Origin: Thermoplasmata archaeon
GTDB taxonomy: Archaea; Thermoplasmatota; Thermoplasmata; Lutacidiplasmatales; UBA184
DNA: 37,501 bases
Direction: 5' to 3'
NCBI GenBank assembly: GCA_030044475.1
Contig: JASHVP010000086.1
Span: 1-37,501 of the forward strand
Shown: positions 17,920 to 36,231 of the stretch, in pieces
How positions within the stretch are numbered: position 1 is the stretch's first letter
Layout: every line of letters begins with the position of its first letter
Position numbers and translations under genes: made by a program
Notes under the pieces: generated by a model
Seen by the model: the letters and a program-made list of their open reading frames with translations, nothing else
What the model was told of the DNA's origin: nothing
Databases searched by the model: none

Positions 17920-17997
17920 GGGGACTCCGTGCGACGAGCGGGCATCGGTGCCGGAGAGCGCGCCCCATAAATAGCGCAGCACGGGTCGGCGGGACCG

Positions 17998-18849: not shown

Positions 18850-18877
18850 CCTCCCGGCCTCGGTCGGCCGACGCCGT

Positions 18878-18950
18878 GCCGCGGTGGCTCAGCTGGCAGA
18901 GCGGCTCCTTGGTAAGGAGCAGGCCGAGGGTTCAAATCCCTCCCGCGGCT
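18878..18950 (+). tRNA. tRNA-Thr (anticodon GGT)
   Basis: I folded the 73-nt cloverleaf by hand. Acceptor GCCGCGG/CCGCGGC, D-arm GCTC-AGCTGGCA-GAGC, anticodon arm GCTCC-TTGGTAA-GGAGC, variable AGGCC, T-arm GAGGG-TTCAAAT-CCCTC, discriminator T. No CCA is encoded. Confidence 0.9.
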
Positions 18951-19017
18951 GGTCATGCCTTGATTTCTTCCGCACGACTATATCGCTACGCTCCCATACG
19001 GAGAGCTCCGTGGGACG

Positions 19018-20370
19018 ATGGATGCGCCCAAAACGTTCTACGCGAAAAGCGGGAACGTTCATGTTGCATACCAAGTCGTCGGCCGCGGACCCATCGACCT
19101 CGTCATCTCCCCTGGGGCTCCGTCCCACTTAATGGTCTATTGGGAAAGCCCCGACCTGAGGGCGTTCCTGGAGGAACTGAGCCGTTTCGCTCGCCTCATC
19201 CTGTTCGACAAGCGCGGTACCGGAATGTCCGACCGCGTCGCGGGACTCGCCACGCTCGAGGACCGGATGGACGATATCCGCGCGGTCATGGACGCGGCCG
19301 GATCCCAGCGGGCCTGGCACTTCGGAGCCTTCGAGGGCGCGGCGATGAGCATCTTGTTCGCGGCGACGTATCCAGAGAGAACTCTAGGCCTGATCCTTTG
19401 CGGGGGCTACGCTCGGGGGCGTCGGGCGCCGGATTATCCATGGGGAGACGCGGAAGAAGACTCTCAACGGCTCACCGACGCCGTTGAAAGAGACTTCCCG
19501 GCCTGGGTCGAGGATTTCGGGCGGATCTTGGCACCCAGCCGGGCGAACGACCCGGATTTCCAGTCGTGGGTATCGAGGCTACTCCAACTCAGCCACACCC
19601 CCGGGTCGGTCGTCACCCATGGGGCGATGAACCAGCTCATCGACGTCCGTCCGATCCTACCGACTGTCCACGTTCCGACCTTGGTGCTCCATGCCGCGGG
19701 GGATCAGATGGCCCTCGTGGACGAGGGTCGGTACATCGCCGAGCGGATTCCCGGGGCCAAATTCGTCGAGATCGACGGAGTCGACCACTTTTTCTTCGTC
19801 CAGCCGAACACCCGTGCGTTCGTCACGCAAGAGGTTCGTCGCTTCGTAAGCGGTCTTCAGCATCCGTCCGAGGCCGACCGGGTCCTCAAGACGGTGCTGT
19901 TCACGGATATCGTGGGTTCGACCCAACGGCTTGCGTCACTCGGGGACCGGGAGTGGGGTCGACGGCTGAACCAGCACTTCTCGGTCGCCCGTGAGGAGGT
20001 AGAGCGGTACCGAGGCCGTGAGGTCAAGACCCTCGGCGACGGATTGGTCGCCACCTTCGATGGACCCACTCGGGCCGTTCGATGCGCGTGCGCGATTCGA
20101 GATCGATCGAGGGCGCTGGGCCTCGAAATCCGAGCCGGATTGCACACTGGCGAGTGTGTCCTGACCGACAAGGACATCGAAGGAATTGCGGTTCACTTCG
20201 CCTCGCGGGTGATGGAGAAGGCGCGTCCCGGGGAAGTGCTCGCTTCGGGTACCGTCCGGGACCTCTCGGCCGGTTCCGACCTCCAGTTCGTCGACCGCGG
20301 GGCCCGAACGCTCAAGGGTGTGCAAGGAAGGTGGCGGCTCTACTCGACGGATGACCCCGAACGAAAGTGA
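19018..20370 (+). CDS. Alpha/beta-hydrolase-fold domain fused to a class III adenylate/guanylate cyclase domain (LipJ/Rv1900c-like architecture)
   Basis: 450 aa with an ATG start. The N-terminal hydrolase fold shows FDKRGTGMSD, GAFEGAAMSILFAATYPER, LVLHAAGDQM and GVDHFFF. The C-terminal cyclase shows VLFTDIVGST, EVKTLGDGLVATF, IRAGLHTGE and IAVHFASRVME. Confidence 0.85.
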   Translation: MDAPKTFYAKSGNVHVAYQVVGRGPIDLVISPGAPSHLMVYWESPDLRAFLEELSRFARLILFDKRGTGMSDRVAGLATLEDRMDDIRAVMDAAGSQRAWHFGAFEGAAMSILFAATYPERTLGLILCGGYARGRRAPDYPWGDAEEDSQRLTDAVERDFPAWVEDFGRILAPSRANDPDFQSWVSRLLQLSHTPGSVVTHGAMNQLIDVRPILPTVHVPTLVLHAAGDQMALVDEGRYIAERIPGAKFVEIDGVDHFFFVQPNTRAFVTQEVRRFVSGLQHPSEADRVLKTVLFTDIVGSTQRLASLGDREWGRRLNQHFSVAREEVERYRGREVKTLGDGLVATFDGPTRAVRCACAIRDRSRALGLEIRAGLHTGECVLTDKDIEGIAVHFASRVMEKARPGEVLASGTVRDLSAGSDLQFVDRGARTLKGVQGRWRLYSTDDPERK

Positions 20371-20681
20371 GGCGTCGAGTCGGCCTTCTTCGCGGGCAGA
20401 CCGGCCGAGTTTCGATCCGGCGGCCGAACCCTCATCGCACGAATCCGGCAGGACGATCTGTTTGGGTGGGCGTGGGCAAGGGATTTGCAGCCTTCCGCCC
20501 GGTGGGCACGCGAGATGCTGCATGACACCGCGAAGGTCGGATCGGGGTGTAGGGTCGTGTGGGCCCACGACCTCGGCCACGTCCGTCGCGGTGCGAGCGC
20601 GCCCTGTCCCGAGACGCTATGTGAGGGACGTGCTCGACCGGACCGATAGCGCGCTGGCCCCCTCCGCGCTACCACGTCACG

Positions 20682-21140
20682 GTGGAGTTCGACGTTCCTC
20701 CCTCGTTTGCGTACAAGTGGTGCACCGATTTCCAACCTGACGATAGCGCCTTGGCCGGGGAGCACTTCGAACGCACGATCCTCCAGCGCTCGCGATACGA
20801 GGTTCTCTACGAGGACCTCTGGTGGGAAAGGGACGGCTGGTTTTGGCGCCGGAACCGCGTGACCCTTCATCCGCCCGACCGCTGGCACGCCGATTCCGTC
20901 GGCAATTTCCGAGACTCGACCCTGGACTATCAACTTACGGAGCTGCCGGGAGGTCGGACCCGGTTCGATCTTCGTTTGCGACGTAGACCGGCTCGCGGTC
21001 GTGGGAAGCAGATCGCTCGCGCGGCACTCGAGGCCGAGCTCCGTTGGCGCTGGCGACGCTACGCCCGCGAGATGTCACGAGATTATCGCCGCTCGAAGAG
21101 GAGCCGCCATTCGCATCCGCGCGCTCGGTCGAACCGCTGA
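20682..21140 (+). CDS. SRPBCC (START/polyketide-cyclase-like) superfamily protein with an Arg-rich tail
   Basis: 152 aa with a GTG start; an in-frame stop at 20622-20624 limits the 5' extent. FDVPPSFAYKWCTDFQPDD resembles the N-terminal strand and helix of SRPBCC proteins. This is a weak by-eye assignment. Confidence 0.45.
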   Translation: MEFDVPPSFAYKWCTDFQPDDSALAGEHFERTILQRSRYEVLYEDLWWERDGWFWRRNRVTLHPPDRWHADSVGNFRDSTLDYQLTELPGGRTRFDLRLRRRPARGRGKQIARAALEAELRWRWRRYAREMSRDYRRSKRSRHSHPRARSNR

Positions 21141-21424
21141 ACACCTCTCGACCCAGGGCCCGTAGCGACCCGAGCGGAAAGGCGGGAGCCGCTTAGGAGC
21201 CTTCATACAGGGCTCTCGCGGCCGACGGAGGAACTCGACGAGCGCAGGACCCCGGGATGTGGAGAACCGAGCCCTTTCGGGCCAGCCGTCCATGAACTCC
21301 GGAGGTACCGGAACCAAGGCGATATGCCCTGCCCCGGGTGTTGAGTCTCAACCGGCGGATCAAGGCACTCGATTTTGCAATAGTCTTAATTGGGTTAGAT
21401 CCATAATCCAAATTTGATTTTGCC

Positions 21425-21637
21425 ATGGCAGCCACCACCATCACCGTTTCTCAGGAAACGAGGAAACTCCTGGAGAGCCTGAAGACCGGGGGGGCAACCT
21501 ACGACGACGTGATCCGCGGTCTCTTGATCGCCCACCCGACTCAGCTCACGATGGCCGAGCTTGCCCGGCGAATCCGGGAAGGCAAGTCGCACCCCATCGA
21601 GGAACTCATCGTCCGTAGCCGAAAGCAGCCTTACTGA
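21425..21637 (+). CDS. Putative type II antitoxin (archaeal VapB-like, PF02697-type)
   Basis: 70 aa. TITVSQETRKLLESLKTGGATYDDVIRGLL matches the pattern I recall for archaeal VapB-type antitoxins (TITISDEvyekLkklKg.geSFSdVIerLL). It ends 7 nt before the toxin start. An AT-rich promoter-like stretch lies at 21380-21420. Confidence 0.55.
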   Translation: MAATTITVSQETRKLLESLKTGGATYDDVIRGLLIAHPTQLTMAELARRIREGKSHPIEELIVRSRKQPY

Positions 21638-21644
21638 GGATTCC

Positions 21645-21995
21645 GTGCCGTTTCGCCTCGAAAGTATCGAGGAAGCGGACACAGAGTTTCTAGCACTGCC
21701 TCCCGAAATCCGCGAGGTTTTCATTGCGGCGTTCCGAGAGATCGCTGTCGGCGATTCGCCGATCGCCCATGGGCCGGAGTGGTACTGCTCAGAGCTGCGG
21801 CAGCGACAGCGGGTGGCGACAGAAGGCCTGTTCTCGCTCCACGTCGGCGATCTCTGGAGAGGGGTCTACTTCCGACGCGGCGAGACCCTTATCTTCATCG
21901 CGTTCGGTTTCCGACTACCCGAGTTCTACGACAAGCTCCAGCGGCTGCGGAAGGCCATGACGGCGCTAGGCGAAACCCGAGGAAAGCTACCCTGA
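21645..21995 (+). CDS. RelE/ParE-superfamily toxin (HigB/Gp49-like)
   Basis: 116 aa from GTG 21645, which is preceded by GAGGA at 21636-21640. The core GLFSLHVGDLWRGVYFRRGETLIFIAFGFR fits the gLfElR...yRviYf..g..ivll.gF signature of the family. Confidence 0.55.
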   Translation: MPFRLESIEEADTEFLALPPEIREVFIAAFREIAVGDSPIAHGPEWYCSELRQRQRVATEGLFSLHVGDLWRGVYFRRGETLIFIAFGFRLPEFYDKLQRLRKAMTALGETRGKLP

Positions 21996-22086
21996 CTCTC
22001 CCTCCGGTTTAGCAGCCGTACCCCGCTCGACGCAAGGGTTCCCTCGCGGGGCTCCTGCGCCCTCTCCGGCAGGGCTTTGAACCCTT

Positions 22087-22109
22087 GGGTCAAATCCCTC
22101 CCGCGGCTG
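22087..22109 (+). repeat. Direct repeat of the tRNA-Thr 3' end (att-like site)
   Basis: GGGTCAAATCCCTCCCGCGGCTG compares with tRNA-Thr 18928-18951 GGGTTCAAATCCCTCCCGCGGCTG. The match is 20 nt identical (22090-22109 = 18932-18951), or 23/24 allowing a 1-nt indel. Confidence 0.7.
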
Positions 22110-22376
22110 ATTTTCTCAGCCAGCACCCTGGCCGGGAATTTGCACGGAGTCCTCGCGCGCGCGGTGTGGCGGGAGCTGCTCGACGGCGGGTATCTCCGTG
22201 ACCCGTTTCGACCTGGTTCTCAGAGAGACCTCTCCGCGGAAATCGGTCCCGTGAGTCGATGGCAAACCCTCGACTTCCCCCGGGAGCATGTGGCGGGCGC
22301 AGCCAAGGTCTCCTATCCCATGTCAAGTTCCGTTCGTGGAATCCCTGCAACCAAGTTCATGGGGCTCACACGGTGC

Positions 22377-22868
22377 TCAGACTCCGTGCTGGTCCACGAA
22401 TCGGTTCAACTTCTCGAAACTTCGAATGAGCACCCGGATTTCGTCGGGCTCGAGGACCGAAACGAATCCGGTGACGATCGCCTCGTATCGCCGCCTTGCC
22501 GCAGAAAACAGCTTCCTGCCGGCCGGAGTCATCCGGATGTTCACTACCCTTCGGTCCGAGGAATCTCTCACCCTGCGGACCAGGCCCTTCGTTTCCATTG
22601 CGTCGATGATAGCCGTGACTGCGGCCTTCGTGACGAGGTTTTCGTCGCTCAGCCGGACCATCGGAAGCGGGCCCGATTCCGACAGCTGTTGGAGCACCGC
22701 GAATTCGGTCAGTCTCAGATCGGGCATCCCGAAAGTCTTGTCAAAGTAGTGGGGCCACTTCCTGCTGGCCACGTTCATCGCGCGAAAAGCCGCCGCGGGA
22801 CTGATCGGGGTCTCTTCCCTCGGCCTTCCCTCCTCGGCGCTTGAGGGTACCCGTCGGCGGGTTGGCAT
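22377..22868 (-). CDS. MarR-family transcriptional regulator
   Basis: 163 aa with an ATG start; the internal ATG at 22778 is an alternative. The winged HTH reads LTEFAVLQQLSESGPLPMVRLSDENLVTKAAVTAIIDAMETKGLVRRVRDSSDRRVVNIRMTPAGRKL. Confidence 0.85.
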   Translation of the reverse strand: MPTRRRVPSSAEEGRPREETPISPAAAFRAMNVASRKWPHYFDKTFGMPDLRLTEFAVLQQLSESGPLPMVRLSDENLVTKAAVTAIIDAMETKGLVRRVRDSSDRRVVNIRMTPAGRKLFSAARRRYEAIVTGFVSVLEPDEIRVLIRSFEKLNRFVDQHGV

Positions 22869-23095
22869 CGTGACGCTCCTGCGTAAACGGTCTGTCAGTG
22901 GGCCCCAGGCGGAAGATGATTAAAGCAATTGCTGAATGGTCAAGTGTTAAGTAGTTCATACATTTACTATATTGTCATGGTGCTCGGGACCGAGGGGAGA
23001 CTTGGCTCGGCCAGGACCGAGGCGCTCGGGTACCTCTACCGGCACGATCGTTGCACGTTTGCCGGCCCTGCCGCCGGGCCGAGGCGAGAGGCCAG
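22869..23095. promoter_or_regulatory. AT-rich divergent promoter/operator region between the marR-like and oxidoreductase genes
   Basis: 22915-22980 (gatgattaaagcaattgctgaatggtcaagtgttaagtagttcatacatttactatattgtcatgg) is among the most A/T-rich stretches in the window, with several TATA-like elements. MarR regulators classically bind such intergenic regions. No clean palindrome was found. Confidence 0.4.
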
Positions 23096-24052
23096 ATGAA
23101 GGCCATTATCCAAGATCGTTACGGGAAGGCTGACACCCTAAAGCTGGACGACGTTGAGCCACCGGTCCCGGACGCGACCAGCGTGCTCCTGCGAGTGCGT
23201 TCCGCGTCGGTGAACAGCCTGGACTCGCAGATCATGTCGGGCCGACCGATCCTCCTCCGCCTCCTAGGGTTCGGCTTGACCCGGCCCAAGCGAAGGATCC
23301 GCGGGGTAGACGTGGCGGGCGAGGTCGTCGCCGTACCGAAGTCGGACTCGCATTTCAAGGTCGGCGACTCCGTTTTCGGCATCGGCAGCGGAACGTTTGC
23401 GGAGTATGTCGCTGCCGACGAGCGGGAGATTACGACCAAGCCGGACGGGGTTTCGTTTGACGATGCGGCAACGCTCGGGGTCGCCGCTTGCACGGCCCTC
23501 TTGGCGGTGCGGGACCGGGGACGCCTTCGGCCGGGCCAGTCCGTGGCCATTACGGGGGCAGGCAGTGGCGTCGGAACGTTCGCCGTCCAGCTCGCGAAGT
23601 GGATGGGGGCTCGGGTGACAGCGGTCACTCGCGCAGACAACCTCGAGATGCTCCGTGCATTGGGCGCAGACAAGGTCATCGACTACGACAAAGGGGACTT
23701 CACGTGCGGACCCGACCGTTTCGACGTCGTCTTCGATATCTCGGGCCTCAACTCGACGCGTACCCTGTTGGGTACACTTCGGCCCGGCGGGACCTTGGTC
23801 ATCGTCGGGGGCCGGGGGGCATTCGGTCGATTCCTGAGCGCCGGGTTGCGCCGCCGAATCCTGCGCCAACGGGTGTACGGTCTCCTGGCCAGGGCCAAGG
23901 CGGACGACCTTGCTCAGCTGGCAACACTCGTCGCTGAAGGGAGAATCAAACCCGCCATCGAGCACGTCTATTCACTCTCCGAAGTGCCGGTAGCGATTGC
24001 TCGAGCCGAGCTCCGCCGGGCGCGCGGAAAATTGGTCATCCACGTTGCCTGA
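23096..24052 (+). CDS. NADPH:quinone oxidoreductase / zinc-type alcohol dehydrogenase-like MDR family protein
   Basis: 318 aa from ATG 23096 (MKAIIQDRYG). The Rossmann motif is VAITGAGSGVGTFAVQLAKWMGARV, and the C-terminal GKLVI is typical of quinone-oxidoreductase-type MDRs. Confidence 0.85.
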   Translation: MKAIIQDRYGKADTLKLDDVEPPVPDATSVLLRVRSASVNSLDSQIMSGRPILLRLLGFGLTRPKRRIRGVDVAGEVVAVPKSDSHFKVGDSVFGIGSGTFAEYVAADEREITTKPDGVSFDDAATLGVAACTALLAVRDRGRLRPGQSVAITGAGSGVGTFAVQLAKWMGARVTAVTRADNLEMLRALGADKVIDYDKGDFTCGPDRFDVVFDISGLNSTRTLLGTLRPGGTLVIVGGRGAFGRFLSAGLRRRILRQRVYGLLARAKADDLAQLATLVAEGRIKPAIEHVYSLSEVPVAIARAELRRARGKLVIHVA

Positions 24053-24111
24053 TCGCAATGCGAGGTTCAGTGGATGGAGGGGGGATGCAAGCCGCCGGGG
24101 ATTCGAACCAA

Positions 24112-24142
24112 GAGGGCAGTCCCTCGCGCGGCTGGTTTTCTC
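24112..24142 (+). repeat. Degenerate third copy of the tRNA-Thr 3' end / att region
   Basis: GAGGGCAGTCCCTCGCGCGGCTGGTTTTCTC shares GAGGG..TCCCTC.CGCGGCTGGT with the tRNA 3' end. It shares the following TTTTCTC with the sequence just after the 22087-22109 copy (GCGGCTGATTTTCTC). Confidence 0.4.
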
Positions 24143-24313
24143 GACGCGGCTCGACTCGTACCGGGAAGGGAGGGCAGCCTTCGGGGAGCTAGGACCTCCC
24201 AGAGAGTCCTACCGTGACTTCGAAGGGACTCGACGAGCGAGTACCGCTCCTTTGGGAATCCCCGGGTCGAATTCCACGGTTTGGAACCGAGCCCTTACGG
24301 ACCCGCCGCGCGG

Positions 24314-25300
24314 CTACCCGGCTCGGTCCAACACCTTCAGGGCCGTCAGCGTGATCATCTTGCTCGGACGACCGACCCGCTCGAAGGTCATTGACATCGG
24401 GCGCTCGTTCGGGTGTCCCGCATACCACCGTGCGCTCGTGGTCCCCGCTCGATCCAGCCAGTCGGGATGGTGGGCAGCCAAGTTCCACCGCCCATCGCTC
24501 CGCTGCTTTCTCTTGAGGTGGTCCAGGGCGAAGGCGAGGCGTCGGTCGCTCGCGTACCCAAGAGCGGTCAGCATGTCGAGCCCGACTAGGATATCGTAGT
24601 AGTAGTGCGTGGGCCAGTGGAAACGGTACCACGGCGGGTATCGGTCCCCCTGGCGGTGGAGCTCGTGGTCCAGGAAGAATTCCGATGCCCGCTCCACGCA
24701 CGCCTTCATGGTCGGCGACCACTTCGAGCGCGGATAGGCCGCGAAGGCCGCCAACCCCTCCCACGAATCGAGATTGCGACTCTTCGAGGGACCGTCGGTG
24801 AAGTTCCAACACGACCAGCCTCCTTGGGGGTGCGAGGTCTGGACCAGCCACTCGAGTGTCTTGCGGGTGCGTGGGTCGTCCGCGTATCCGAATTTCACGA
24901 GAGCGCGTGCCATATTGCCCGTGAAACACAGGTGACCGATGCCTTGATTCCCCAGTGCGCCCACGCCGCCGTTCTTGAGCGGGGTTTTCGCCATCCACAG
25001 CTCTGACGACGCAGCAACCTCGGGGATGGAGCGGGAGGCGCCGAGGTCCGCCATCGCGAGGAGATTCCAATTCATCGACTGATACTTCGGCCACATGGGC
25101 GCGCCATTGCGGACCCACCATCCTCCGGGGTCACGCTTGGCGAGCATGTCGGCGACCCAACCTTCCCGAGGGATCCGAGCCTTCGCCTCGCGAACGTCCG
25201 GGTCGCTCGCCTTGCGGCCCAGCAGTTGCGTGAGAGTGAGATAACGAACGGACGGTTGTTCCGGTTCCAACAGCCACTCGATGACTCGTTGGCCCGGCAT
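24314..25300 (-). CDS. Prenyltransferase/squalene-cyclase-like alpha/alpha-toroid repeat protein
   Basis: 328 aa from ATG 25298-25300; the track start at 25312 is a TTG. It has repeated Gly-Trp motifs characteristic of terpenoid cyclase/prenyltransferase repeats (DPGGWWV, PQGGWSCW, SDGRWNL). Its function is unknown. Confidence 0.55.
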   Translation of the reverse strand: MPGQRVIEWLLEPEQPSVRYLTLTQLLGRKASDPDVREAKARIPREGWVADMLAKRDPGGWWVRNGAPMWPKYQSMNWNLLAMADLGASRSIPEVAASSELWMAKTPLKNGGVGALGNQGIGHLCFTGNMARALVKFGYADDPRTRKTLEWLVQTSHPQGGWSCWNFTDGPSKSRNLDSWEGLAAFAAYPRSKWSPTMKACVERASEFFLDHELHRQGDRYPPWYRFHWPTHYYYDILVGLDMLTALGYASDRRLAFALDHLKRKQRSDGRWNLAAHHPDWLDRAGTTSARWYAGHPNERPMSMTFERVGRPSKMITLTALKVLDRAG

Positions 25301-25791
25301 TGCCCGCGGCAATTTCCGGAGCGTTTAATCCTGGATGGAGACGTCGGCCTATCATCACACGGGAGGTTCACATCCGAATCGCGTCGCGGCCTTCGCGTGA
25401 CGTCAGCTCTCAGGACTCGGCGGCGGTGTCTTGGGCGGCCGAGTCGTCCAGGACTTGAGCCCTCAGGTCGAATCCCTCGATCGCGAAGGCTCCTTTGACC
25501 CGAAAACCGGCCGCATCCTGAGCGTCGGCCGCTGCAGCATGGATTTGAACTCCGAGTTGAACCCCTTCTCGCGGGTCTCATCTCGCCGCGGATTTTTGCC
25601 GCGCTCCCCACCGCGCTTACCCAACGTAACCACCGCCTCGAAAACCGAAACAGGAACTTCTGGGCCCGATCGACGAGCTTCGGGTACGGGGCCGAACGGT
25701 GGCGGCACCGAAAAACAGGCTATCGGTCCCGTTCCGAAAGTCTGTCTCGGATGACATCGGTCTAAGAACCCCTTTCGACCATTCCTCGATC

Positions 25792-26574
25792 ATGCCGCGC
25801 CCCGCGACCACATCGGAGAAGATCGAGGGCTGGAATCCCCTTCCCGATCCCAACGGATTCTTCTCGTCGGGAATCGCCGACTTCGACCGGCTGCTCGGGG
25901 GTGGATTCCCCCGAGGGAGCTGCGCGCTCTTCAGCGTCGATGAGACGGTCGGACGCGAAGATCTCGATCTCCTGCTGATCCCGACGTTCCTGAATTTCCT
26001 CTATCAGTCCCGGGGGATCACCGCTACGTTGCCGTCTCGCGATTCCCCTCACGATTTTCGGGCGCGTCTCCTTCGCTTCGTCACGCGCCGTCGGTTCGAC
26101 AGCCGGGTGCGCGTGGTGGATTTCGTGGGTGAGGACGAGGGGCTCTCCTACGTCGTCAGCTTGCGGATCCGGAATCCGGCCCATCACCCGCTCACTCCCA
26201 CCGAACAGAAAGCCGGTCTGGAGAAGGCTCTGAAGGCCGAGAAAGCGGCCGCCGGGAATCGGAGGAAGCCGTGGCTGGAGCTGTCGGCATTCGAAGCCTT
26301 GGAGACGCTCGCGGGGGTGGAAGCGGCGACCCAGATGTTCTACATCGGCACGAAGCGGTCCCGGCAACTCGGCAACCTCTGGATCGGTCTCCTCAGTCCC
26401 GGTTTGGGGAGCGCGGCCGCGGCCCGCAGGATGGCCGATACGGAATTCGCCCTCCGCCACGAGGAGATGGGGCTCCTCATTCGGGGGATTCGACCGTCGT
26501 TCCCGAGTCACGTAGTCGTCTCGGACTCGAGAGCGGGTCCTCCCCACGTTGCGTTCGTCCCCCGCCCCTCCTGA
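25792..26574 (+). CDS. KaiC/RadA-like RecA-superfamily protein with a degenerate (absent) Walker A
   Basis: 260 aa from ATG 25792. SSGIADFDRLLGGGFPRGSCALFS matches the KaiC-like GIxGLDxLLGGGxPxGSxxLxxG signature. The expected GxxGxGKT is replaced by VDETVGRED. The C-terminal ALRHEEMGLLIRGIRPS resembles the KaiC-fold terminal strands. Confidence 0.6.
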   Translation: MPRPATTSEKIEGWNPLPDPNGFFSSGIADFDRLLGGGFPRGSCALFSVDETVGREDLDLLLIPTFLNFLYQSRGITATLPSRDSPHDFRARLLRFVTRRRFDSRVRVVDFVGEDEGLSYVVSLRIRNPAHHPLTPTEQKAGLEKALKAEKAAAGNRRKPWLELSAFEALETLAGVEAATQMFYIGTKRSRQLGNLWIGLLSPGLGSAAAARRMADTEFALRHEEMGLLIRGIRPSFPSHVVVSDSRAGPPHVAFVPRPS

Positions 26575-26615
26575 GGGTCGTCTCGCGGTCGAGGAACGAT
26601 GGGAGGGAGTTCGAG

Positions 26616-27362
26616 ATGATCGCATGCGCGAACGAAGGGGCGCACGTCCCGGGCCGGGAGACTCGCGCGTGGGCTACCGCCATGCCGCCGTCCGATCTCC
26701 CCGGGAAGGAGACCCCCTCCGTACGACGCGTGTCGATGGAGGACTTCCGACCGGCGCGCTTGCAGGACATTCTCGGTCAGCCCGACGCCATCGCTCGACT
26801 CCTACGGCTGGCCCGGGGGGTCCGGAACGGCTCGATCGTTCCTCCGACGCTCCTGCTGCACGGCCCACCGGGAATTGGTAAGACCACGGCCGTACGGGCC
26901 TTCGCTCGCGAAGTCCTGAGCGACGAGTTCGAGAACAGCTTCTCCGAATTGAAGGCCTTCGACGACCGCAGCCCGCGCCGGATGGCGGAGATCATTCTCA
27001 ATTCCCGTCGCCCGCCGTTGCGCGGTGCGCCGTTCCGGATCATCTTCTTTGACGAGATCGAAACGCTCAGTCCGGAGTCCATGAACGCCCTGCGACCCGC
27101 GGTGGAAGGTGAGGGTGGCACGTCTCTCTACGCCCTCGCCTGCAATGACATTCGTGATGTTCCGAAGCCCTTGCAGTCGAGGTGTACCGTTCTCGAGTTC
27201 CGCCCTGTGAGCCCGGAAGGGATGCGGCAGATTCTCGCTCGGGCGCTGCCGAGAACTTCGTTCCGGCTCGATGATCTGGCGATTGCGTCGATCGTCGAGC
27301 GATGCCACGGTATTCCGCGCGAGGCGATCAAACTCCTTCTCGAAGAGGGTGGTGCGGCCTAG
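26616..27362 (+). CDS. Clamp-loader-clade AAA+ ATPase, RFC small-subunit-like but lacking the C-terminal collar domain
   Basis: 248 aa from ATG 26616, which is preceded by GGGAGGGAG at 26601-26609. Motifs present: FRPARLQDILGQ, Walker A HGPPGIGKTT, Walker B IIFFDEIE, sensor-1 LACN, the SRC motif LQSRCTVLEF and sensor-2 GIPREAIKLL. The ORF ends ~10 aa later. Confidence 0.75.
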   Translation: MIACANEGAHVPGRETRAWATAMPPSDLPGKETPSVRRVSMEDFRPARLQDILGQPDAIARLLRLARGVRNGSIVPPTLLLHGPPGIGKTTAVRAFAREVLSDEFENSFSELKAFDDRSPRRMAEIILNSRRPPLRGAPFRIIFFDEIETLSPESMNALRPAVEGEGGTSLYALACNDIRDVPKPLQSRCTVLEFRPVSPEGMRQILARALPRTSFRLDDLAIASIVERCHGIPREAIKLLLEEGGAA

Positions 27363-27669
27363 AGGCGGTGCGCGCGGGACCTCATCGCGTTCGGTTTCTG
27401 AACGCCGGAGTTCCATCCCACGCTGGAGCGACTGGGGAGGGCCGTCACTACCCGAGGCGAGCCCCCCGGAACCCCCGCGGATTCTCCCGCGAGTGGGATG
27501 GCCCGACCGTCGCCTCTCGCGCGCGGCTCGGTGCGGCGGCCTTGTGCCCTCTCCCATGACGTCGGGTCCCGGAAGCCACTTGCCCCCCCGCGGCAAGCGC
27601 CCTTGCGCCGCAGCGGTATCGAACGACCACCTCGCTCGGGGCAGTCGGAGCCAAGAAGTCTCGCGGGGA

Positions 27670-28587
27670 CTACCTCGGCCGAAACCCGTCCGGCCGAAGT
27701 CCGTCGAACACGACGTACTCCCGACGCCCGACGAGTCGGAATCCCAGTTTCTCCGGAATTCGCCACGAGGCTATGTTCGGTTCGCCCGCCACCCAGACCG
27801 GCGTCAGTCCGGCAGCCCGTAGGTCGGAACAAACGAGGAACGCGGCAGCGCTCGCGAGACCTCGACGTCGTGCCTCGGGCAGTGTCGCCGCGCCCAGATC
27901 GACGTGGAGACCGGCCCACGCCGAGGTGGTGATCGCCGAGACGAGCTTTCCACCGGAAACGGACCCCGCTGCCACCCCATCCGACAGCGTACGAGCCGCG
28001 CTCCCGTGGCCGACGAAGAACGACCTGAAGAGCACGTCGGAACCCTCCACCTCCCGGAGGTCGGCAGCCCCGAGGCGCCGGACCTCGGGCCGGGTGAAAT
28101 TTCGGGGTTCTCCCCCGAGGGAGTAGATGCGTTCGCTGACAATTCGCGAGGGGAGCTCGAGCCTCGGTTCGAGCACCGAGGCCACCTCCCGTCCGATGCC
28201 TGCCTCAACATTGACACAGTCCCATCCGGGAAGGCGAGCGAGCAGGGACCAGAGCGCTTGCACATCGGTGCCCATGGCCATCGGCTCGCGTGGCTCCCCG
28301 AAACCCCGCACCACGGCCATCGCGGGAGCGGCCGGACTGCCGACGGCGTACGACCGACAGAGACCGAACTTGAGTTGACCTGCGGTCAGCGCCGAGAACG
28401 CCGTATCTCCCATCCATCGGAGGAGGGCGATCCGCTCGTCCGCGGTGAGTTCCGCCAACCCGGGTGCCTCGGGCAACACCTTCGACCGTCGAAGCGAACG
28501 GACAATGCGGAGAGCGGAAGAAGGCTGGGATTCGGCGAAGAAGGCGGGGTCGGTGCCAGCGACTCGGACGTCCAGCAGAGGAGCCAC
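27670..28587 (-). CDS. GNAT-family N-acetyltransferase (two-domain, GNAT_acetyltran/FR47-like C-terminus)
   Basis: 305 aa with a GTG start. The C-terminal EARRRGLASAAAFLVCSDLRAAGLTPVWVAGEPNIASWRIPEKLGFRLVG fits the acetyl-CoA-binding core of this GNAT subfamily. Confidence 0.7.
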   Translation of the reverse strand: MAPLLDVRVAGTDPAFFAESQPSSALRIVRSLRRSKVLPEAPGLAELTADERIALLRWMGDTAFSALTAGQLKFGLCRSYAVGSPAAPAMAVVRGFGEPREPMAMGTDVQALWSLLARLPGWDCVNVEAGIGREVASVLEPRLELPSRIVSERIYSLGGEPRNFTRPEVRRLGAADLREVEGSDVLFRSFFVGHGSAARTLSDGVAAGSVSGGKLVSAITTSAWAGLHVDLGAATLPEARRRGLASAAAFLVCSDLRAAGLTPVWVAGEPNIASWRIPEKLGFRLVGRREYVVFDGLRPDGFRPR

Positions 28588-28917
28588 GATGGATGGGACC
28601 TACCGTCGCGGGTGAGTGAGCCGCGCCGGGGAGGCGGTGATGGGAACCGGGGGCGCCCAGGTGGTCGGCGGCGGCCAGTTTTTCCCCCGGCCCGGGTGCG
28701 TCAATACGTCGGCCGAGGAGGCGCCTCCCCACGGTAGCGGCCGGACTCTGCTCCTTCGCTGACCAGCCCGGCTGACCACCGTGGGACCGCGACCAGACGG
28801 GCCGTACGCGACCCCTCGCGCCAGTCATCGCCTCCGGGGAAGCGAGAGATCCCCTCGACTCTCCCGAACGACCTCCCCTTGCATCGTCCCCCAGCCCCTC
28901 TGTCGAGGGGCCCGGTC

Positions 28918-29364
28918 TCATGCCCGACGTTCGTAGTGAAGGAACGACACGTCGCGGACCCAACCTTCGGATTCGTACAGCGATCGTGCTGGATTATCAA
29001 CCGCGGTCTCAAGCGTCAGGTACTCCGCCCGAGTTTCGCGGGCGTACCTCCGGGCCCGTCGGAGCAGCGCCCGTCCCACACCGTTCCGTCGGCAACCGGG
29101 GAGAACGTAGAGGTCGTTCAGCACCCAGATCGGCCGTAGGGAAATGGAGGAGAAGGACGGATAGAGGAGGGTGAAGCCGACCACATCTCCCGCCTGCTCC
29201 GCCAGAAACACGACCGCCTCGCGGCGACGCAGTCGCGAAGCGAGGTACGTACGTTCCCCCGACGGGTTCGGTCGCCGTCGGTAGAATCGCCGGTACGCCC
29301 CGAAGAGAGGAACGAGGCGACCCAGGTCGCCGGCCCGCGCCCGTCGAATTACGAGCGGAGCCAC
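28918..29364 (-). CDS. GNAT-family N-acetyltransferase
   Basis: 148 aa with a GTG start. LYVLPGCRRNGVGRALLRRARRYARETRAEYLTLETAVDNPARSLYESEGW contains the R/QxxGxG/A motif and the terminal YxxxGF/W block. Confidence 0.8.
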   Translation of the reverse strand: MAPLVIRRARAGDLGRLVPLFGAYRRFYRRRPNPSGERTYLASRLRRREAVVFLAEQAGDVVGFTLLYPSFSSISLRPIWVLNDLYVLPGCRRNGVGRALLRRARRYARETRAEYLTLETAVDNPARSLYESEGWVRDVSFLHYERRA

Positions 29365-33177: not shown

Positions 33178-33333
33178 TGTTCCTGGCGGGTCTGGGGATC
33201 CACACGCCCGGCACCGCCAAACTGCGGCAAACCCGTGGGATCCCCCGTCCACGGTCCCGCGCGCCCCCTCGGCGCCGGGGCTCCGGACGACCGGGAACCC
33301 CCCGACGATCCCGTCCGGAAGGCCGGCGGCGAC

Positions 33334-36096
33334 GTGACCCTTCGAATCGAGTTGGGCGCGGGGACGGCGGGGGCGAATCTCGGTGGCCGGGGGGCCTCAC
33401 CTCCCGGGGGCGCGGGAGGGGGTCATGTCCCCCGTCGTCCCGCGCCGCGGTGGATCGATCGCCGTCGCGCCGTCGTCGTCAGCCTGCTTATTGCGATCGG
33501 GATGGCCGCAACGGCCGGTACGTCGTTCGAGGGCGCCCCCGCGAGGGCGCTTCCGCCGTCGCTCCTGCTCGCTGTCACGGACGATTTCGCCCACGCCGCT
33601 CGCCCTTCCGCCCCGGGGTTCTCCCCGGTGATCCCGACGACGCTGGACCTCTCGAACGGCTCGCGGCTCTTGGGAAATGTCTCCACGCTGCAGGGACTCT
33701 CCCCCTACGCCGTCGTCGAGGACCCCGCGACCCAGGACCTCCTCGTGGTGAGCGGGTGCTACGTCGATTCGTACTGCCGGTACGATGTCCCAGAGCTGGG
33801 CTTCACCGTCACGATCCTCAACGGTTCGACCGGTGTACCGCAGGCCACCTTCCCGTTGGGCGCCTCCGGGTCGCTGCCGGTCGGGTCCAGCGGCCTCCCC
33901 GCCGATGCGATCGCCTACGACCCGTCCAGCGGGGAGCTGTTCATCGCGGCGAACGCGACGTACATCCTGAACGTCGCAACGGAGCGAGTCGTGGCGACGC
34001 TTCCTCTGGGGGCGTTCACCGGGGGCCTCGCCTACGACCCGAACACCGGAGACGTGTACGCCGCCGCCGGAGCCAACGTGACCGTCATCTCCGGCGCCAC
34101 GAATTCCGTGCTGCAGACCTTCCCAATCGGCCGTGACGTCGACGGGATCGCGTACGCTCCCTCCGACGGGGACCTGTATGTGGGAGAGCCGGCGGGCGGG
34201 TGGATGGGGAACAACCCCCACGAGCCGATCGTGGAGGCCGGGAACGTCTCCGTCCTCTCGCCCCTCACCGGGGAGGTCCTCGCCACGCGGGGGCTCTCGA
34301 TCTGTCCGTTCGGGCTGCTCTTCGACCCCATCGGGTCCGACGTTGACGTCGCCGGATTCGTCGACCCGGAGCCCGCCCGGAACGTCACGGGGGCCAGCGG
34401 CGTGACCGTGCTCTCGACCGCCACGAACGCGGAGGTCGCTCAGATTCCCTGCGAAGCCGACTGCTTCTCGGGGGCGTTCTCCTCGGCCTCGGGGGACCTG
34501 TACTTCTCCGGAGAAGACGCGGTCACGATCGACAACGCCACGACCGGCGCGTTGGTCGCGACCGTGTACGGGAACGGGTCGGCGACCCATCAGCAGTTCG
34601 TCGGACCGGTCCGGGGGATCTCCGTCGACGCGACCGACGGACGGGTGCTGGCGGCGGTCGCGAACTCGCCGGCGAATCTGAACCCGCTCGGGAGCGTGAT
34701 CGCGCTGTCGGGGTCGAACGACACCGTCGTCGACCACTTTCAGGTGGCGGCGCTCCCGGGGAACGTCCTGTGGGACTCGGAGACCGGCGACCTCTACGTC
34801 GTCGACATCGGGACCGAGAACGTCACCGTCGTCGACCCGAGCACCGGGGCGATCGTCGCCCAAATCTTCGTCCCGGGCCTTGCGAATGCCCCGATCGCCG
34901 TCGCCCCGTCCGGACGGGAGCTGTACGTGATCGGCGCGGCGGTGCCGATCCGCGCCGATTCCAACGCGGTCTACGCGATCGATCCGGCGAACGATACGGC
35001 CTGGCCGGTCTGGCGCCCGGGCCGTACGGTGGGGGACGTCGGCGTCGATCCGGTGACCGGCGACCTCTACGTCTCGAACTTGCTTTCGACCAACGTCACG
35101 ATCGTCGACCCCGATTCGGGGGCGTTCGTCGAGAACCTCACCCTGGCTCCCGCCTCGCCGAGCCCCGAGGTGGTGTACAGCTCTCCGCCGGTGTACGACC
35201 CGGCGGACGGGGATCTCTACGTTCCGGTCGGGCCCATCGAAGGCTCTCTCAACCTAACGGTGGTGAACGCGAGCCGGAACTCGCTCGTCGCGTCGTTCCT
35301 CTGCCCCGTGGCGGGCGGAGACTACGAGGTGGACTCTCCCGAACTGGCCTACGACCCGACCGACCACCAGGTCTGGGCCAACGCGCTCAGCGGAGCGTGC
35401 GAGGACGAGCAGAACGTGAGTTCGCTTCCAAGCGACCTTCCGCTGCTGCCGTTGACGATCGGCTACGATCCGAACGCGGGGGCGCTGATCCTGGCCGGCG
35501 CGGGCACGGTGAACGGGACGACGGGCGACGTGACCGCGCTCTACGACCCCGCCACGAACACGACCCTCGGAGCGGTCGGGCTCCCCTCGCCCGGGGCCAC
35601 GGTGCCTTCGAGCGTGGCGCCGATCCCGACGCTCGGCACGGTCGCGATCCCGAACGCCCTCCCCGGCGACCTCGCGATCGCGCAGTTCGCCTCCGGGCCA
35701 CCGCCCGCCCCGACGTATCCCGTCACCTTCACCGAGTCGGGCCTTCCCGCGGGCGCCGAGTGGTCGGTGACGCTCGGGACCGGGTCGAACTCGAGCTCGT
35801 CCGCCTCGGTCGGTTTCGGGGTCACGAACGGCACCTATCTCTACTCGATTCCGTCCGTGACCGAATCCGGGGATCGCTACGGGGCGACGCCCCCGAACGG
35901 CTCGGTCGCCGTGAACGGCTCGGCGGTCCGGATCTCCCTCGCGTTCCAGCCGACCCTCGGGTCCCCGCCCGAGACGACGGCGGCGGCCGGGGTCCCCTGG
36001 GTCCTGTACGGGTCGTTGGTGCTGGCCGCCGCCGTCGCTCTCGTCGCGGCCGTCCGGTTCGCCCGGAGACGGAAGCCTCCCCCGGGCCCGCCGTGA
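33334..36096 (+). CDS. YVTN-family beta-propeller repeat surface protein with one copy of the shared ~80-aa module and a C-terminal membrane anchor
   Basis: It has many ~40-aa repeats of the type GIAYDPSSGELFIAANATYILNVATERVVATLPLG / GLAYDPNTGDVYAAAGANVTVISGATNSVLQTFPIG. The shared module starts at 35716 (YPVTFTESGLPAGAEWSVTL). The C-terminal TM is followed by RRRKPPPGPP. I counted ~23 sequons by hand. The track start (33154) lies inside the tRNA gene. I list the first in-frame GTG (33334); TTG 33352 or a frameshifted ATG 33425 are alternatives. Confidence 0.75.
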   Translation: MTLRIELGAGTAGANLGGRGASPPGGAGGGHVPRRPAPRWIDRRRAVVVSLLIAIGMAATAGTSFEGAPARALPPSLLLAVTDDFAHAARPSAPGFSPVIPTTLDLSNGSRLLGNVSTLQGLSPYAVVEDPATQDLLVVSGCYVDSYCRYDVPELGFTVTILNGSTGVPQATFPLGASGSLPVGSSGLPADAIAYDPSSGELFIAANATYILNVATERVVATLPLGAFTGGLAYDPNTGDVYAAAGANVTVISGATNSVLQTFPIGRDVDGIAYAPSDGDLYVGEPAGGWMGNNPHEPIVEAGNVSVLSPLTGEVLATRGLSICPFGLLFDPIGSDVDVAGFVDPEPARNVTGASGVTVLSTATNAEVAQIPCEADCFSGAFSSASGDLYFSGEDAVTIDNATTGALVATVYGNGSATHQQFVGPVRGISVDATDGRVLAAVANSPANLNPLGSVIALSGSNDTVVDHFQVAALPGNVLWDSETGDLYVVDIGTENVTVVDPSTGAIVAQIFVPGLANAPIAVAPSGRELYVIGAAVPIRADSNAVYAIDPANDTAWPVWRPGRTVGDVGVDPVTGDLYVSNLLSTNVTIVDPDSGAFVENLTLAPASPSPEVVYSSPPVYDPADGDLYVPVGPIEGSLNLTVVNASRNSLVASFLCPVAGGDYEVDSPELAYDPTDHQVWANALSGACEDEQNVSSLPSDLPLLPLTIGYDPNAGALILAGAGTVNGTTGDVTALYDPATNTTLGAVGLPSPGATVPSSVAPIPTLGTVAIPNALPGDLAIAQFASGPPPAPTYPVTFTESGLPAGAEWSVTLGTGSNSSSSASVGFGVTNGTYLYSIPSVTESGDRYGATPPNGSVAVNGSAVRISLAFQPTLGSPPETTAAAGVPWVLYGSLVLAAAVALVAAVRFARRRKPPPGPP
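35716..35955 (+). repeat. Single copy of the Y-x-V-T-F-T-E-S-G-L-P module shared with the thermopsin-like protein
   Basis: YPVTFTESGLPAGAEWSVTLGTGSNSSSSASVGFGVTNGTYLYSIPSV...PPNGSVAVNGSAV compares with YLVTFTESGLPSGTLWSVVFHGSTNSSGGATIGFVVPNGTYGYSIGVV...PPTGSVSVSGPGT in the neighbouring gene. Confidence 0.7.
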
Positions 36097-36231
36097 CCTT
36101 CCGAGGGCGTCGTGCCGGTCCCCGGGACCCGGTCGTCCGGGGTGGGTGGTATTTGAACCCCCACGGGGTTCGCGGTCGAGCCGTGGTCCGCTCGAACGCC
36201 GGCCCCCACCGAACGAGGTGACCGATCGAAC

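What the first reader, a model, noticed from the sequence alone, without database searches (positions are those of the whole stretch)
25792..27362. Candidate undescribed two-gene module: P-loop-less KaiC/RadA-fold protein + collar-less RFC-like AAA+ ATPase
The two genes are co-oriented and 41 nt apart, and GGGAGGGAG lies 6 nt upstream of the second gene's ATG, so one transcript is likely. Gene 1 (260 aa) opens with the KaiC/RadA-type signature SSGIADFDRLLGGGFPRGSCALFS. Where GxxGxGK(T/S) must follow it reads VDETVGRED, so it has no P-loop and is predicted to be a non-hydrolysing RecA-fold scaffold. Gene 2 (248 aa) belongs to the clamp-loader clade and has every catalytic element intact: FRPARLQDILGQ, Walker A HGPPGIGKTT, Walker B IIFFDEIE, sensor-1 LACN, the SRC arginine finger LQSRCTVLEF and sensor-2 GIPREA. 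It terminates ~10 residues after the sensor-2 helix. It therefore lacks the C-terminal collar domain that assembles RFC/gamma-complex pentamers, and is unlikely to be the housekeeping RFC small subunit. The pair lies in the lower-GC island segment bracketed by tRNA fragments, next to an orphan alpha/alpha-toroid protein and two GNATs. My working hypothesis is a mobile-element-derived heteromeric NTPase machine in which the inactive RecA-fold protein replaces the collar as an oligomerisation platform. It could be a replication/recombination accessory of an extinct plasmid or virus, or an NTPase-driven conflict (defence) module. I know of no described system with this pairing.
Basis: partly seen in the sequence, partly recalled or inferred. 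Interest (0 to 1): 0.7.

Follow-up and report, generated by a model that had tools for sequence, protein, structure and literature searches.

The report
Two unlinked Thermoplasmata genes, not a module
The two neighbouring genes are real and unusual (a KaiC-like protein with no ATP-binding loop, and a replication-factor-C-like ATPase with no collar domain), but each belongs to its own conserved archaeal family with its own promoter, and they sit together only in this organism's closest relatives, so they are not a conserved two-gene machine or a mobile-element relic.

Summary
The sequence observations hold. Gene 1 (25792-26574) has a KaiC-like fold and no P-loop. Gene 2 (core 26736-27362) is an RFC-small-subunit homologue with every catalytic motif and no collar.

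The module interpretation does not hold.
- Gene 1 is a stand-alone copy of the C-terminal half of GvpD (Pfam GvpD_bR2). It belongs to a Thermoplasmata family of at least 346 clusters. The P-loop loss is ancestral, and about 100 nt of promoter/operator is deeply conserved.
- Gene 2 belongs to a discrete family of about 115 clusters, all collar-less. It is under purifying selection (dN/dS 0.10) and normally has its own TATA-like box.
- The two genes are adjacent only in the window and in relatives at 81% identity or more. They are apart at 80, 74, 65, 64, 62, 60, 58, 52 and 51% identity. Among 69 gene 1 lineages (643 kb of flanks) a gene 2 copy occurs once, in the reverse order and with separate promoters.
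- A close relative has the pair in the same backbone position but lacks the 6.66 kb that the window carries at tRNA-Thr, so the pair is not inside the island.
- Neither protein has a viral, plasmid or defence-system relative.

Best reading: two independent uncharacterised genes, juxtaposed and possibly co-transcribed in one narrow clade. Interest is modest.

The parts
25792..26574 (+). Gene 1: 260-aa stand-alone homologue of the C-terminal (bR2) half of GvpD. KaiC/RecA fold, no Walker A.
   Evidence: Pfam GvpD_bR2 at 40.1 bits against a 27.9-bit cut-off. hhalign to H. salinarum GvpD residues 246-517, probability 97.7%. Foldseek hits KaiC-like structures. 59 invariant columns in 30 orthologues, with DETVGxEDLD at the P-loop position. 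dN/dS 0.18 against L167.
25682..25791 (+). Conserved promoter/operator region of gene 1. It has a TATA-like TCTAAGAA box at 25761-25768 (-31 to -24 from the ATG) and three upstream TACCG-type boxes about 22 nt apart, which are partly degenerate in the window.
   Evidence: Conserved across about 80 orthologous loci whose proteins are only 55-66% identical to gene 1. RNAalifold predicts 0 pairs and Rfam gives no match, so this is a DNA-level element.
26736..27362 (+). Gene 2 conserved core (MEDFRP... to the stop): collar-less RFC-small-subunit paralogue made of an AAA+ domain I plus a three-helix lid. Walker A/B, sensor 1, the SRC arginine finger and sensor 2 are all intact.
   Evidence: AF2 pLDDT 86. 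Foldseek 2chg_A TM 0.81, rmsd 2.6 A. Family of about 115 clusters, all 147-281 aa. dN/dS 0.10.
26616..26735 (+). Only the last 10 or so codons (ETPSVRRVS) are conserved. Candidate true starts are ATG 26682, GTG 26730 and ATG 26736.
   Evidence: No DNA homology to L167 over window 26576-26707. The residue 1-29 alignment is not meaningful. pLDDT is below 50 for residues 1-15 and reaches only about 55 by residues 21-30. Family N-termini are listed. Unlike other family members, this region has no TTGATAT-type TATA box.
18878..18950 (+). tRNA-Thr(GGT), the integration target that precedes the inserted segment.
   Evidence: ARAGORN. Syntenic with L167.
18955..25611 (.). 6.66-kb lower-GC segment (GC 0.634 against 0.723 upstream) that is absent from relative L167. 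It contains tRNA-Thr 3'-end copies at 22087-22111 and 24120-24136, and it ends upstream of gene 1. It is context only, not part of the pair.
   Evidence: blastn of L167 against the window. Repeats. GC. Gene content: alpha/beta-hydrolase fused to a cyclase domain, MarR, Zn-ADH and a toroid protein.

Best explanation
These are two independent, conserved but uncharacterised Thermoplasmata genes. They became neighbours in one narrow, genus-level clade. They are not a conserved module.

Gene 1 is a free-standing copy of the catalytically dead C-terminal KaiC-like domain of GvpD-type regulators. It most likely acts as a non-hydrolysing adaptor or oligomerisation subunit in a regulatory protein-protein interaction. 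It is transcribed, probably without a leader, from its own deeply conserved promoter, which has three upstream operator-like boxes.

Gene 2 is a divergent paralogue of the RFC small subunit that keeps the ATPase module (domains I and II) and the trans-acting SRC arginine finger but has no collar. It is most likely an active ATPase that works through AAA+-to-AAA+ contacts, either as a homo-oligomer or docked on another AAA+ or clamp partner, and not as a collar-assembled pentamer subunit.

In the window's clade gene 2 sits downstream of gene 1 and lacks the family's usual TATA box. Here it may be read through from gene 1's promoter as a lineage-specific operon.

Shown: domain identities, conservation, purifying selection, lack of conserved linkage, and backbone location. 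Inferred: leaderless promoters, co-transcription in this clade, and the biochemical roles.
For: - Identity of gene 1.
- Identity of gene 2.
- Selection: gene 1 dN/dS 0.18 and gene 2 dN/dS 0.10.
- Linkage from the gene 1 side: 82 gene 1 loci represent 69 lineages with 643 kb of flanks. 60 of the lineages have at least 500 nt upstream and 60 have at least 500 nt downstream. Only L003 holds a gene 2 relative.
- Linkage from the gene 2 side: nine distinct gene 2 lineages at 51-80% identity (L178/179, L170, L171/172, L173, L176, L175, L006, L004/005, L177) have no gene 1 within their flanks, tested by tblastn at E up to 10 or 1e-6.
- The pair is kept only in L167-169, at 83% and 81-88% identity.
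- Large gene 1 contigs (717, 706, 659, 287 and 212 kb, among others) are not among the gene 2 contigs.
- Separate promoters: a conserved TCTAAGAA box plus TACCG boxes upstream of gene 1 in about 80 loci, and a TTGATAT-type box about 25 nt before the start codon of gene 2 in most lineages but not in the window or L167.
- Backbone position: L167 has ECH, tRNA-Thr, gene 1, gene 2, GNAT and a thermopsin-like gene, without window 18955-25611.
Against: - One further lineage (L003, a 2.18-Mb contig) also has the two genes adjacent, in reverse order and 280 nt apart. By chance about 0.03-0.08 such cases would be expected among about 70-80 lineages, so this is a weak hint of linkage.
- In the window's clade gene 2 has lost its own TATA-like box, which fits operon formation.
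- Genome-wide co-occurrence of the two families could not be tested, because most loci are short metagenomic contigs.
- The biochemical roles proposed for both proteins are inference only.
Confidence: 0.75

Rival explanations
1. A genuine functional two-gene module. The P-loop-less KaiC-like protein and the collar-less RFC-like ATPase form a heteromeric complex in which gene 1 supplies the oligomerisation platform. The genes are simply often encoded apart.
For: Adjacency is kept under purifying selection in the window and L167-169. There is a second adjacency, in reverse order, in L003. Gene 2 lacks its own TATA-like box in this clade. The conserved SRC arginine finger implies that gene 2 needs some oligomeric partner.
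Against: The genes are not adjacent in 9 of 10 other gene 2 lineages or in 68 of 69 gene 1 lineages. The gene 1 family is about three times larger than the gene 2 family: at least 346 clusters against about 115. Each gene has its own conserved promoter. In two-domain relatives the fused partner of the gene 1 domain is a KaiC-like P-loop domain. In L003 the gene 2 copy carries a 1-nt frameshift.
Confidence: 0.1
2. A remnant of a plasmid, virus or integrated element, or an NTPase-based defence module carried on the tRNA-Thr island.
For: The pair has a lower GC content (0.635-0.65) than the contig (0.694). It lies next to a 6.66-kb segment with tRNA 3'-end repeats. One gene 2 relative (L178) lies 0.6 kb from an AbiEi/AbiEii pair.
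Against: L167 has the pair at the same backbone site without the inserted segment. No tRNA fragment lies downstream of the pair. Gene 1 has no PADLOC hit and gene 2 has only weak generic AAA hits. Gene 1 has no phage or viral-contig relative, and its only plasmid hits are haloarchaeal gvpD. Gene 2 shows only generic clamp-loader or DnaX homology at 33% identity or less. Both families sit in varied housekeeping contexts such as PolD, FtsZ, Orc1/Cdc6, tRNA synthetases and eRF1.
Confidence: 0.03
3. Gene 2 is a 3'-truncated pseudogene copy of the genomic rfcS.
For: It ends about 100 residues short of canonical RFCS and aligns to residues 12-212 of 327 in 1iqp.
Against: About 115 clusters share the same short architecture and the conserved C-terminus GIPREAIKLLLEEGGA. 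dN/dS is 0.10. Identity to canonical RFCS is only 30-42%, and there is a clear score gap between the family and canonical RFCS. No collar remnant lies downstream. The AF2 model shows a complete lid.
Confidence: 0.01

Closest known systems
Archaeal replication factor C small subunit (RfcS; PDB 1IQP, 2CHQ; the engineered domains 1-2 construct is 2CHG)
   Same: AAA+ domain I plus lid domain II, with RFC boxes II-VIII: (F/Y)RP, GPPGxGKT, the DExx Walker B, sensor-1 N, the SRC arginine finger and the sensor-2 R. Foldseek TM 0.81 and rmsd 2.6 A to 2chg. 35-42% identity to P. furiosus RFCS.
   Different: No domain III collar (Pfam Rep_fac_C is absent). It scores 116 bits against the 303-bit equivalog cut-off. 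Canonical archaeal RFCS proteins are 57-62% identical to the P. furiosus protein, whereas this family reaches only 35-42%. Box IV is ELKAFDDR instead of ELNASDERG, and box VI is LRPAxEGEGG instead of LRRTME. No role in clamp loading has been shown.
GvpD, the haloarchaeal repressor of gas-vesicle formation that lowers the level of the activator GvpE
   Same: Gene 1 aligns over its whole length to GvpD residues 246-517 (probability 97.7%) and passes the Pfam GvpD_bR2 gathering score. Its near-invariant ARRMADTEF aligns to the same part of GvpD where the second arginine-rich region (494RRR496 in H. mediterranei, PMC4390858) modulates repression.
   Different: It lacks the whole N-terminal P-loop domain that GvpD needs for function (PMC4390858). 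No gvp genes are nearby. The host is Thermoplasmata, not Halobacteria. Identity is only 35-38% over 73 residues.
Single-domain archaeal KaiC-like ATPases (PH0186, PH0284, SSO2452, ArlH/FlaH)
   Same: Same RecA/KaiC fold and the same N-terminal SxGIxxLDxLLGGGxxxGS motif.
   Different: Those proteins keep a Walker A. In gene 1 it is replaced by DETVGxEDLD throughout the family.
Elp4/5/6 (PAXNEB), the P-loop-degenerate RecA-fold ring of eukaryotic Elongator
   Same: An inactive RecA-fold scaffold. There is a weak N-terminal motif match (E 0.0012).
   Different: The match is below the Pfam cut-off (18.4 against 28 bits) and covers the N-terminal motif only. There is no evidence of a hetero-hexamer or of a tRNA link.

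Membership tests
RFC small subunit (clamp-loader subunit) | AAA+ module with RFC boxes including Walker A/B, sensor 1, the SRC arginine finger and sensor 2 | tested here: met
RFC small subunit (clamp-loader subunit) | C-terminal domain III (collar, Pfam Rep_fac_C PF08542) that assembles the pentamer | tested here: not met
   The protein ends 13 residues after sensor 2. There is no PF08542 hit. It aligns to positions 7-205 of the 322-position model. No remnant lies downstream. The collar is absent in all of about 115 family clusters.
RFC small subunit (clamp-loader subunit) | Reaches the curated equivalog score (NCBIfam NF001679, 303 bits) | tested here: not met
   116.3 bits.
RFC small subunit (clamp-loader subunit) | Assembles with RfcL and loads PCNA; a canonical rfcS is present or absent in the same genome | not testable with these tools
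   The window is a single 37.5-kb MAG contig. No canonical RFCS was found in any fetched locus of this clade.
GvpD | C-terminal bR2 domain (Pfam PF20440 gathering score) | tested here: met
   40.1 bits against 27.9. hhalign probability 97.7%.
GvpD | N-terminal P-loop domain (Pfam GvpD_P-loop PF07088) required for repression | tested here: not met
   Gene 1 is 260 aa and matches only GvpD 246-517. Two-domain relatives such as P0271 do have PF07088, KaiC and PF20440 together.
GvpD | Encoded in a gvp cluster next to gvpE | tested here: not met
   The neighbours are a toroid protein, MarR, ADH, GNATs and the RFC-like gene. Compare the gvpD-gvpE arrangement in H. salinarum.
KaiC-like ATPase | RecA/KaiC fold | tested here: met
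   Foldseek probability 1.0 to KaiC, PH0284, PH0186, SSO2452 and FlaH, TM 0.5-0.64. The model is of moderate quality, pTM 0.71.
KaiC-like ATPase | Walker A GxxxxGK(T/S) | tested here: not met
   DETVGxEDLD in all 30 aligned orthologues, and similar degenerate sequences in distant relatives.
Conserved two-gene operon or module | The two families recur as neighbours across divergent genomes | tested here: not met
   One of 69 gene 1 lineages and one of 10 other gene 2 lineages, both the same locus (L003) and in reverse order.
Known anti-phage defence systems (PADLOC) | A significant match to a defence-system protein model | tested here: not met
   Gene 1 has no hit. Gene 2 has only weak, generic P-loop-region hits, the best being DolB at E 4.5e-6 over 80 residues.

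The most novel reading that the evidence does not exclude
The two adjacency events (gene 1 then gene 2 in the window's clade; gene 2 then gene 1 in L003) reflect a real, facultative partnership. A collar-less RFC-derived AAA+ ATPase would use a dead GvpD/KaiC-type RecA-fold protein as its assembly platform or substrate adaptor. That would be a previously undescribed AAA+/RecA-fold hybrid machine in Thermoplasmata.
Probability: 0.1. Interest if true: 0.6.

Novelty: new variant of a known kind. Interest (0 to 1): 0.3.

Why it matters
The proposed module would have been a new kind of NTPase machine, and the evidence says it is not one. Two modest leads remain.

1. A discrete Thermoplasmata family of RFC-small-subunit paralogues has lost the collar but kept every catalytic residue, including the trans-acting arginine finger. 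The collar is the feature that defines how clamp loaders assemble. This raises the question of what an RFC ATPase module does on its own.
2. A widespread free-standing GvpD C-terminal pseudo-ATPase occurs in organisms without gas vesicles, and it has an unusually conserved promoter/operator. That suggests GvpD-type regulation is broader than gas-vesicle control.

I found no published description of either family, but my literature access was limited.

Tried and rejected
- The genome-contig scan with the gene 2 alignment was swamped by generic P-loop patterns.
- P0202, the first collar-bearing hit, looked eukaryotic, so I could not use it to look for a canonical RFCS in the same genomes. A P. 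furiosus RFCS fragment found no canonical RFCS in the loci of this clade.
- The conserved-neighbour clustering around gene 1 was dominated by antisense and overlapping ORF artefacts of the high-GC DNA. The only real recurrent neighbour was a Roadblock/LC7 gene, in 13 loci.
- The unannotated ORFs of about 130-240 aa upstream of several gene 2 relatives are unrelated to gene 1 and to each other.
- I first read the toroid, cyclase and ADH homologues near both families as residual synteny. They lie at variable distance and orientation, so they are more likely abundant paralogues.
- I tested whether the conserved region upstream of gene 1 is a structured RNA. RNAalifold gave 0 pairs and Rfam gave no match, so I rejected that idea.
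- Literature searches found nothing on either family. The Makarova 2017 paper on KaiC-like ATPases is not held in the library.
- I did not use the sigma-70 promoter scanner, because the organism is an archaeon.
Full report
OBSERVATION

The window is an entire 37,501-nt contig of an NCBI MAG. Its two proteins are catalogued as P0214 and P0204. Homologues are named Thermoplasmata archaeon.

Both ORFs are present as described. Gene 1 (25792-26574, 260 aa) carries SSGIADFDRLLGGGFPRGSCALFS followed by VDETVGRED. Gene 2, as read by the first stage (26616-27362, 248 aa), carries all the listed RFC motifs and stops 13 residues after the sensor-2 arginine. GGGAGGGAG lies 6 nt before ATG 26616, which is 41 nt after gene 1's stop. 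No collar-like sequence exists in any frame of the 300 nt downstream.

WHAT GENE 1 IS

- Pfam places it in GvpD_bR2 (40.1 bits against a cut-off of 27.9), with a sub-threshold PAXNEB/Elp4 match.
- Sequence search of the PDB finds only the N-terminal motif of KaiC-like proteins.
- The family profile aligns over its whole length to residues 246-517 of the 536-aa H. salinarum GvpD (probability 97.7%).
- An AlphaFold model (pTM 0.71) hits KaiC, SSO2452, PH0284, PH0186 and FlaH.
- The family has at least 346 clusters at 90% identity. Members are about 262 aa, are 59-68% identical to the window protein, and share 59 invariant columns. The Walker A position reads DETVGxEDLD in every aligned member.
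- An exhaustive profile search of 1.84 billion representatives gives a small superfamily of 360 proteins at E ≤ 0.001. The orthologues form one 50% cluster. The rest are a few other stand-alone proteins of about 230-265 aa and many proteins of 440-545 aa that match through their C-terminal half. The longer proteins have the architecture GvpD_P-loop + KaiC + GvpD_bR2, with an intact Walker A only in the N-terminal domain.

Gene 1 is therefore a free-standing copy of the ancestrally P-loop-less C-terminal domain of GvpD-type proteins. In GvpD, the Walker motifs and an arginine-rich region are needed for GvpD-induced breakdown of the activator GvpE. A second arginine-rich region near the C-terminus modulates repression (PMC4390858). 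Gene 1's near-invariant ARRMADTEF aligns to that part of GvpD.

WHAT GENE 2 IS

- NCBIfam's best match is the RfcS equivalog, but only positions 7-205 of 322 and 116 bits against a 303-bit cut-off.
- The best PDB sequence match is P. furiosus RFCS, residues 12-212 of 327.
- The AlphaFold model (pLDDT 86) is an AAA+ core plus a three-helix lid that ends the protein.
- The best structural match is 2chg, the engineered 'RFC domains 1 and 2' (TM 0.81, rmsd 2.6 Å).
- A profile search finds about 115 clusters, all 147-281 aa and at least 47% identical. The next hits are canonical 320-334-aa RFCS proteins with the Rep_fac_C collar, at 30-35% identity, so there is a clear gap.
- Family members are 35-42% identical to P. 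furiosus RFCS, whereas canonical archaeal RFCS proteins are 57-62% identical to it.
- Walker A/B, sensor 1, SRC and sensor 2 are invariant or nearly so, and the C-terminus GIPREAIKLLLEEGGA is conserved.
- dN/dS against the closest relative is 0.10.

Gene 2 is a functional, discrete, collar-less paralogue family and not a pseudogene.

THE START OF GENE 2

Most family members start at MEDFRP or 4-18 residues before it, with a conserved RRxS(M/I)EDFRP motif. The real start is more likely ATG 26682, GTG 26730 or ATG 26736. The gap to gene 1 would then be 107-161 nt, and the Shine-Dalgarno argument loses force.

IS IT A MODULE?

From the gene 1 side:
- A metagenome scan returned 80 loci. With those from the encoding-contig look-ups this makes 82 loci and 69 lineages at 95% identity.
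- 60 lineages have at least 500 nt of upstream flank, 60 have at least 500 nt of downstream flank, and the flanks total 643 kb.
- tblastn finds a gene 2 relative in one locus only, L003.

From the gene 2 side:
- The pair is kept in L167-169, three assemblies with gene 1 at 83% and gene 2 at 81-88% identity.
- It is absent at 80% (L178/179), 74% (L170), 61-65% (L171/172), 64% (L173, which lies between PolD DP2 and FtsZ), 62% (L176), 60% (L175), 58% (L006) and 51-52% (L004/005, L177).
- The large contigs that carry gene 1 (717, 706, 659, 287 and 212 kb, among others) do not appear among the contigs of the gene 2 family.

In L003 the order is reversed: gene 2, then 280 nt, then gene 1. Each gene has its own promoter-like box there, and gene 2 carries a single extra base. 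That base is either an assembly indel or a recent frameshift.

Because the window was selected for its adjacency, L003 is the only independent replicate. About 0.03-0.08 such cases would be expected by chance among about 70-80 lineages, so it is a weak hint and nothing more.

SEPARATE REGULATION

About 100 nt upstream of gene 1 is conserved in about 80 loci, even though the proteins are only 55-66% identical to gene 1. The region contains a TCTAAGAACCCC box 24-31 nt before the ATG, which is the position of an archaeal TATA box on a leaderless mRNA (inference). It also contains three TACCG boxes about 22 nt apart. RNAalifold predicts no pairs and Rfam has no match, so this is a DNA element.

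Most gene 2 orthologues have their own (C)TTGATAT or similar box about 25 nt before their start codon. The window and L167 do not. In this clade alone, gene 2 may therefore be read through from gene 1. No oligo-T run follows gene 1's stop. This is inferred, not shown.

LOCATION

blastn of L167 against the window shows collinearity from ECH and tRNA-Thr (window 17958-18954) directly to the gene 1 region (25612-26575). The window therefore has 6.66 kb (18955-25611, GC 0.634) that L167 lacks.

tRNA-Thr 3'-end copies lie at 22090-22109 (a perfect 20 nt, none expected by chance) and, more weakly, at 24120-24136. None lies downstream of the pair. The pair is on the backbone next to an integration hot spot, not inside the island.

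Neither protein has relatives on viral contigs, phages or plasmids beyond haloarchaeal gvpD and generic clamp-loader or DnaX homology. PADLOC gives nothing specific.

MECHANISM (inferred)

Gene 1 has no P-loop. It has many invariant arginines (TRRRFDSRVRV, KRxR, RRM). Its homologous domain in GvpD-type proteins is fused to a KaiC-like ATPase. I therefore predict a non-hydrolysing adaptor or oligomerisation subunit in a regulatory protein complex, whose natural ATPase partner is KaiC-like.

Gene 2 keeps the trans-acting SRC arginine, so it should hydrolyse ATP within an oligomer. Without a collar, that oligomer must be held together by AAA+ contacts or by a partner. Its genomic contexts vary and give no consistent clue: PolD/FtsZ in one locus, 5-7 kb from Orc1/Cdc6 in two loci, and otherwise metabolic genes.

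VERDICT

The sequence observation is largely correct. The domain-level interpretation is correct. The module, mobile-element and defence interpretations are not supported. Novelty lies in two uncharacterised variants of known kinds. Interest is modest, at 0.3.

Noticed in passing
window 25682-25791; the same region in L087-L166, L001, L003: About 100 nt upstream of gene 1 is conserved across about 80 loci whose proteins are only 55-66% identical to gene 1. It holds a TCTAAGAACCCCTTTCGACCAT block 24-31 nt before the ATG and three TACCG boxes (GTACCGG ... GTACCGGAAAATG ... CTACCGTCAGAAAAT) about 22 nt apart. There is no RNA structure (RNAalifold 0 pairs) and no Rfam hit. This is probably a leaderless promoter plus the operator of an unknown regulator. 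The upstream boxes are partly degenerate in the window itself.
   Followed up: partly
window 18878-25611: An intact tRNA-Thr(GGT) is followed by a 6.66-kb lower-GC segment that is absent from relative L167. The segment holds a perfect 20-nt copy of the tRNA 3' end at 22090-22109 and a weaker copy at 24120-24136. This looks like two tandem, decayed integrations. No integrase was recognised. The cargo is an alpha/beta-hydrolase fused to an adenylate/guanylate cyclase domain, MarR, a Zn-dependent dehydrogenase and an alpha/alpha-toroid protein.
   Followed up: partly
L117 6416-6907 and 12 other gene 1 loci: A Roadblock/LC7-domain ORF (Pfam Robl_LC7, E 5.5e-9) lies immediately downstream of gene 1 on the same strand in 13 of the gene 1 loci. 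It is the only recurrent real neighbour found, and it is not present in the window.
   Followed up: partly
L003 5071-5740: On a 2.18-Mb contig the gene 2 orthologue sits 280 nt upstream of the gene 1 orthologue, which is the reverse order. It has one extra 'a' (gagAAtcggc, about 5516) that shifts the frame in an otherwise intact gene. This is either a long-read assembly indel or a very recent pseudogene.
   Followed up: partly
window 24314-25312 (-); L175 10245-11216; L158/L159; L176: The 'orphan' alpha/alpha-toroid protein (weak SQHop_cyclase matches) has orthologues of 59-61% identity near gene 2 (L175) and near gene 1 (8 of 82 loci), at variable distance and orientation. It belongs to an abundant family in these genomes rather than being an orphan.
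   Followed up: partly
window 27367-28921 and 33184-36143: Two further segments of the window have no blastn counterpart in relative L167. The first contains the 305-aa GNAT gene and the second a 980-aa ORF. Together with the tRNA-Thr insertion, they suggest this stretch of chromosome is a hot spot of gene gain and loss.
   Followed up: no
L178 1587-3391: In the relative at 80% identity, gene 2 lies 0.6 kb from an AbiEi/AbiEii toxin-antitoxin pair on the opposite strand. This was seen once only and is treated as coincidence.
   Followed up: no
L175 1-522 and L176 1492-2649: In two gene 2 lineages an Orc1/Cdc6 gene lies 5-7 kb upstream in a shared syntenic block (Cdc6, lipoyl synthase, CCA-adding enzyme, radical SAM). 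In L173 gene 2 lies between PolD DP2 and FtsZ. This hints at a position near replication genes, but it is not consistent across loci.
   Followed up: no
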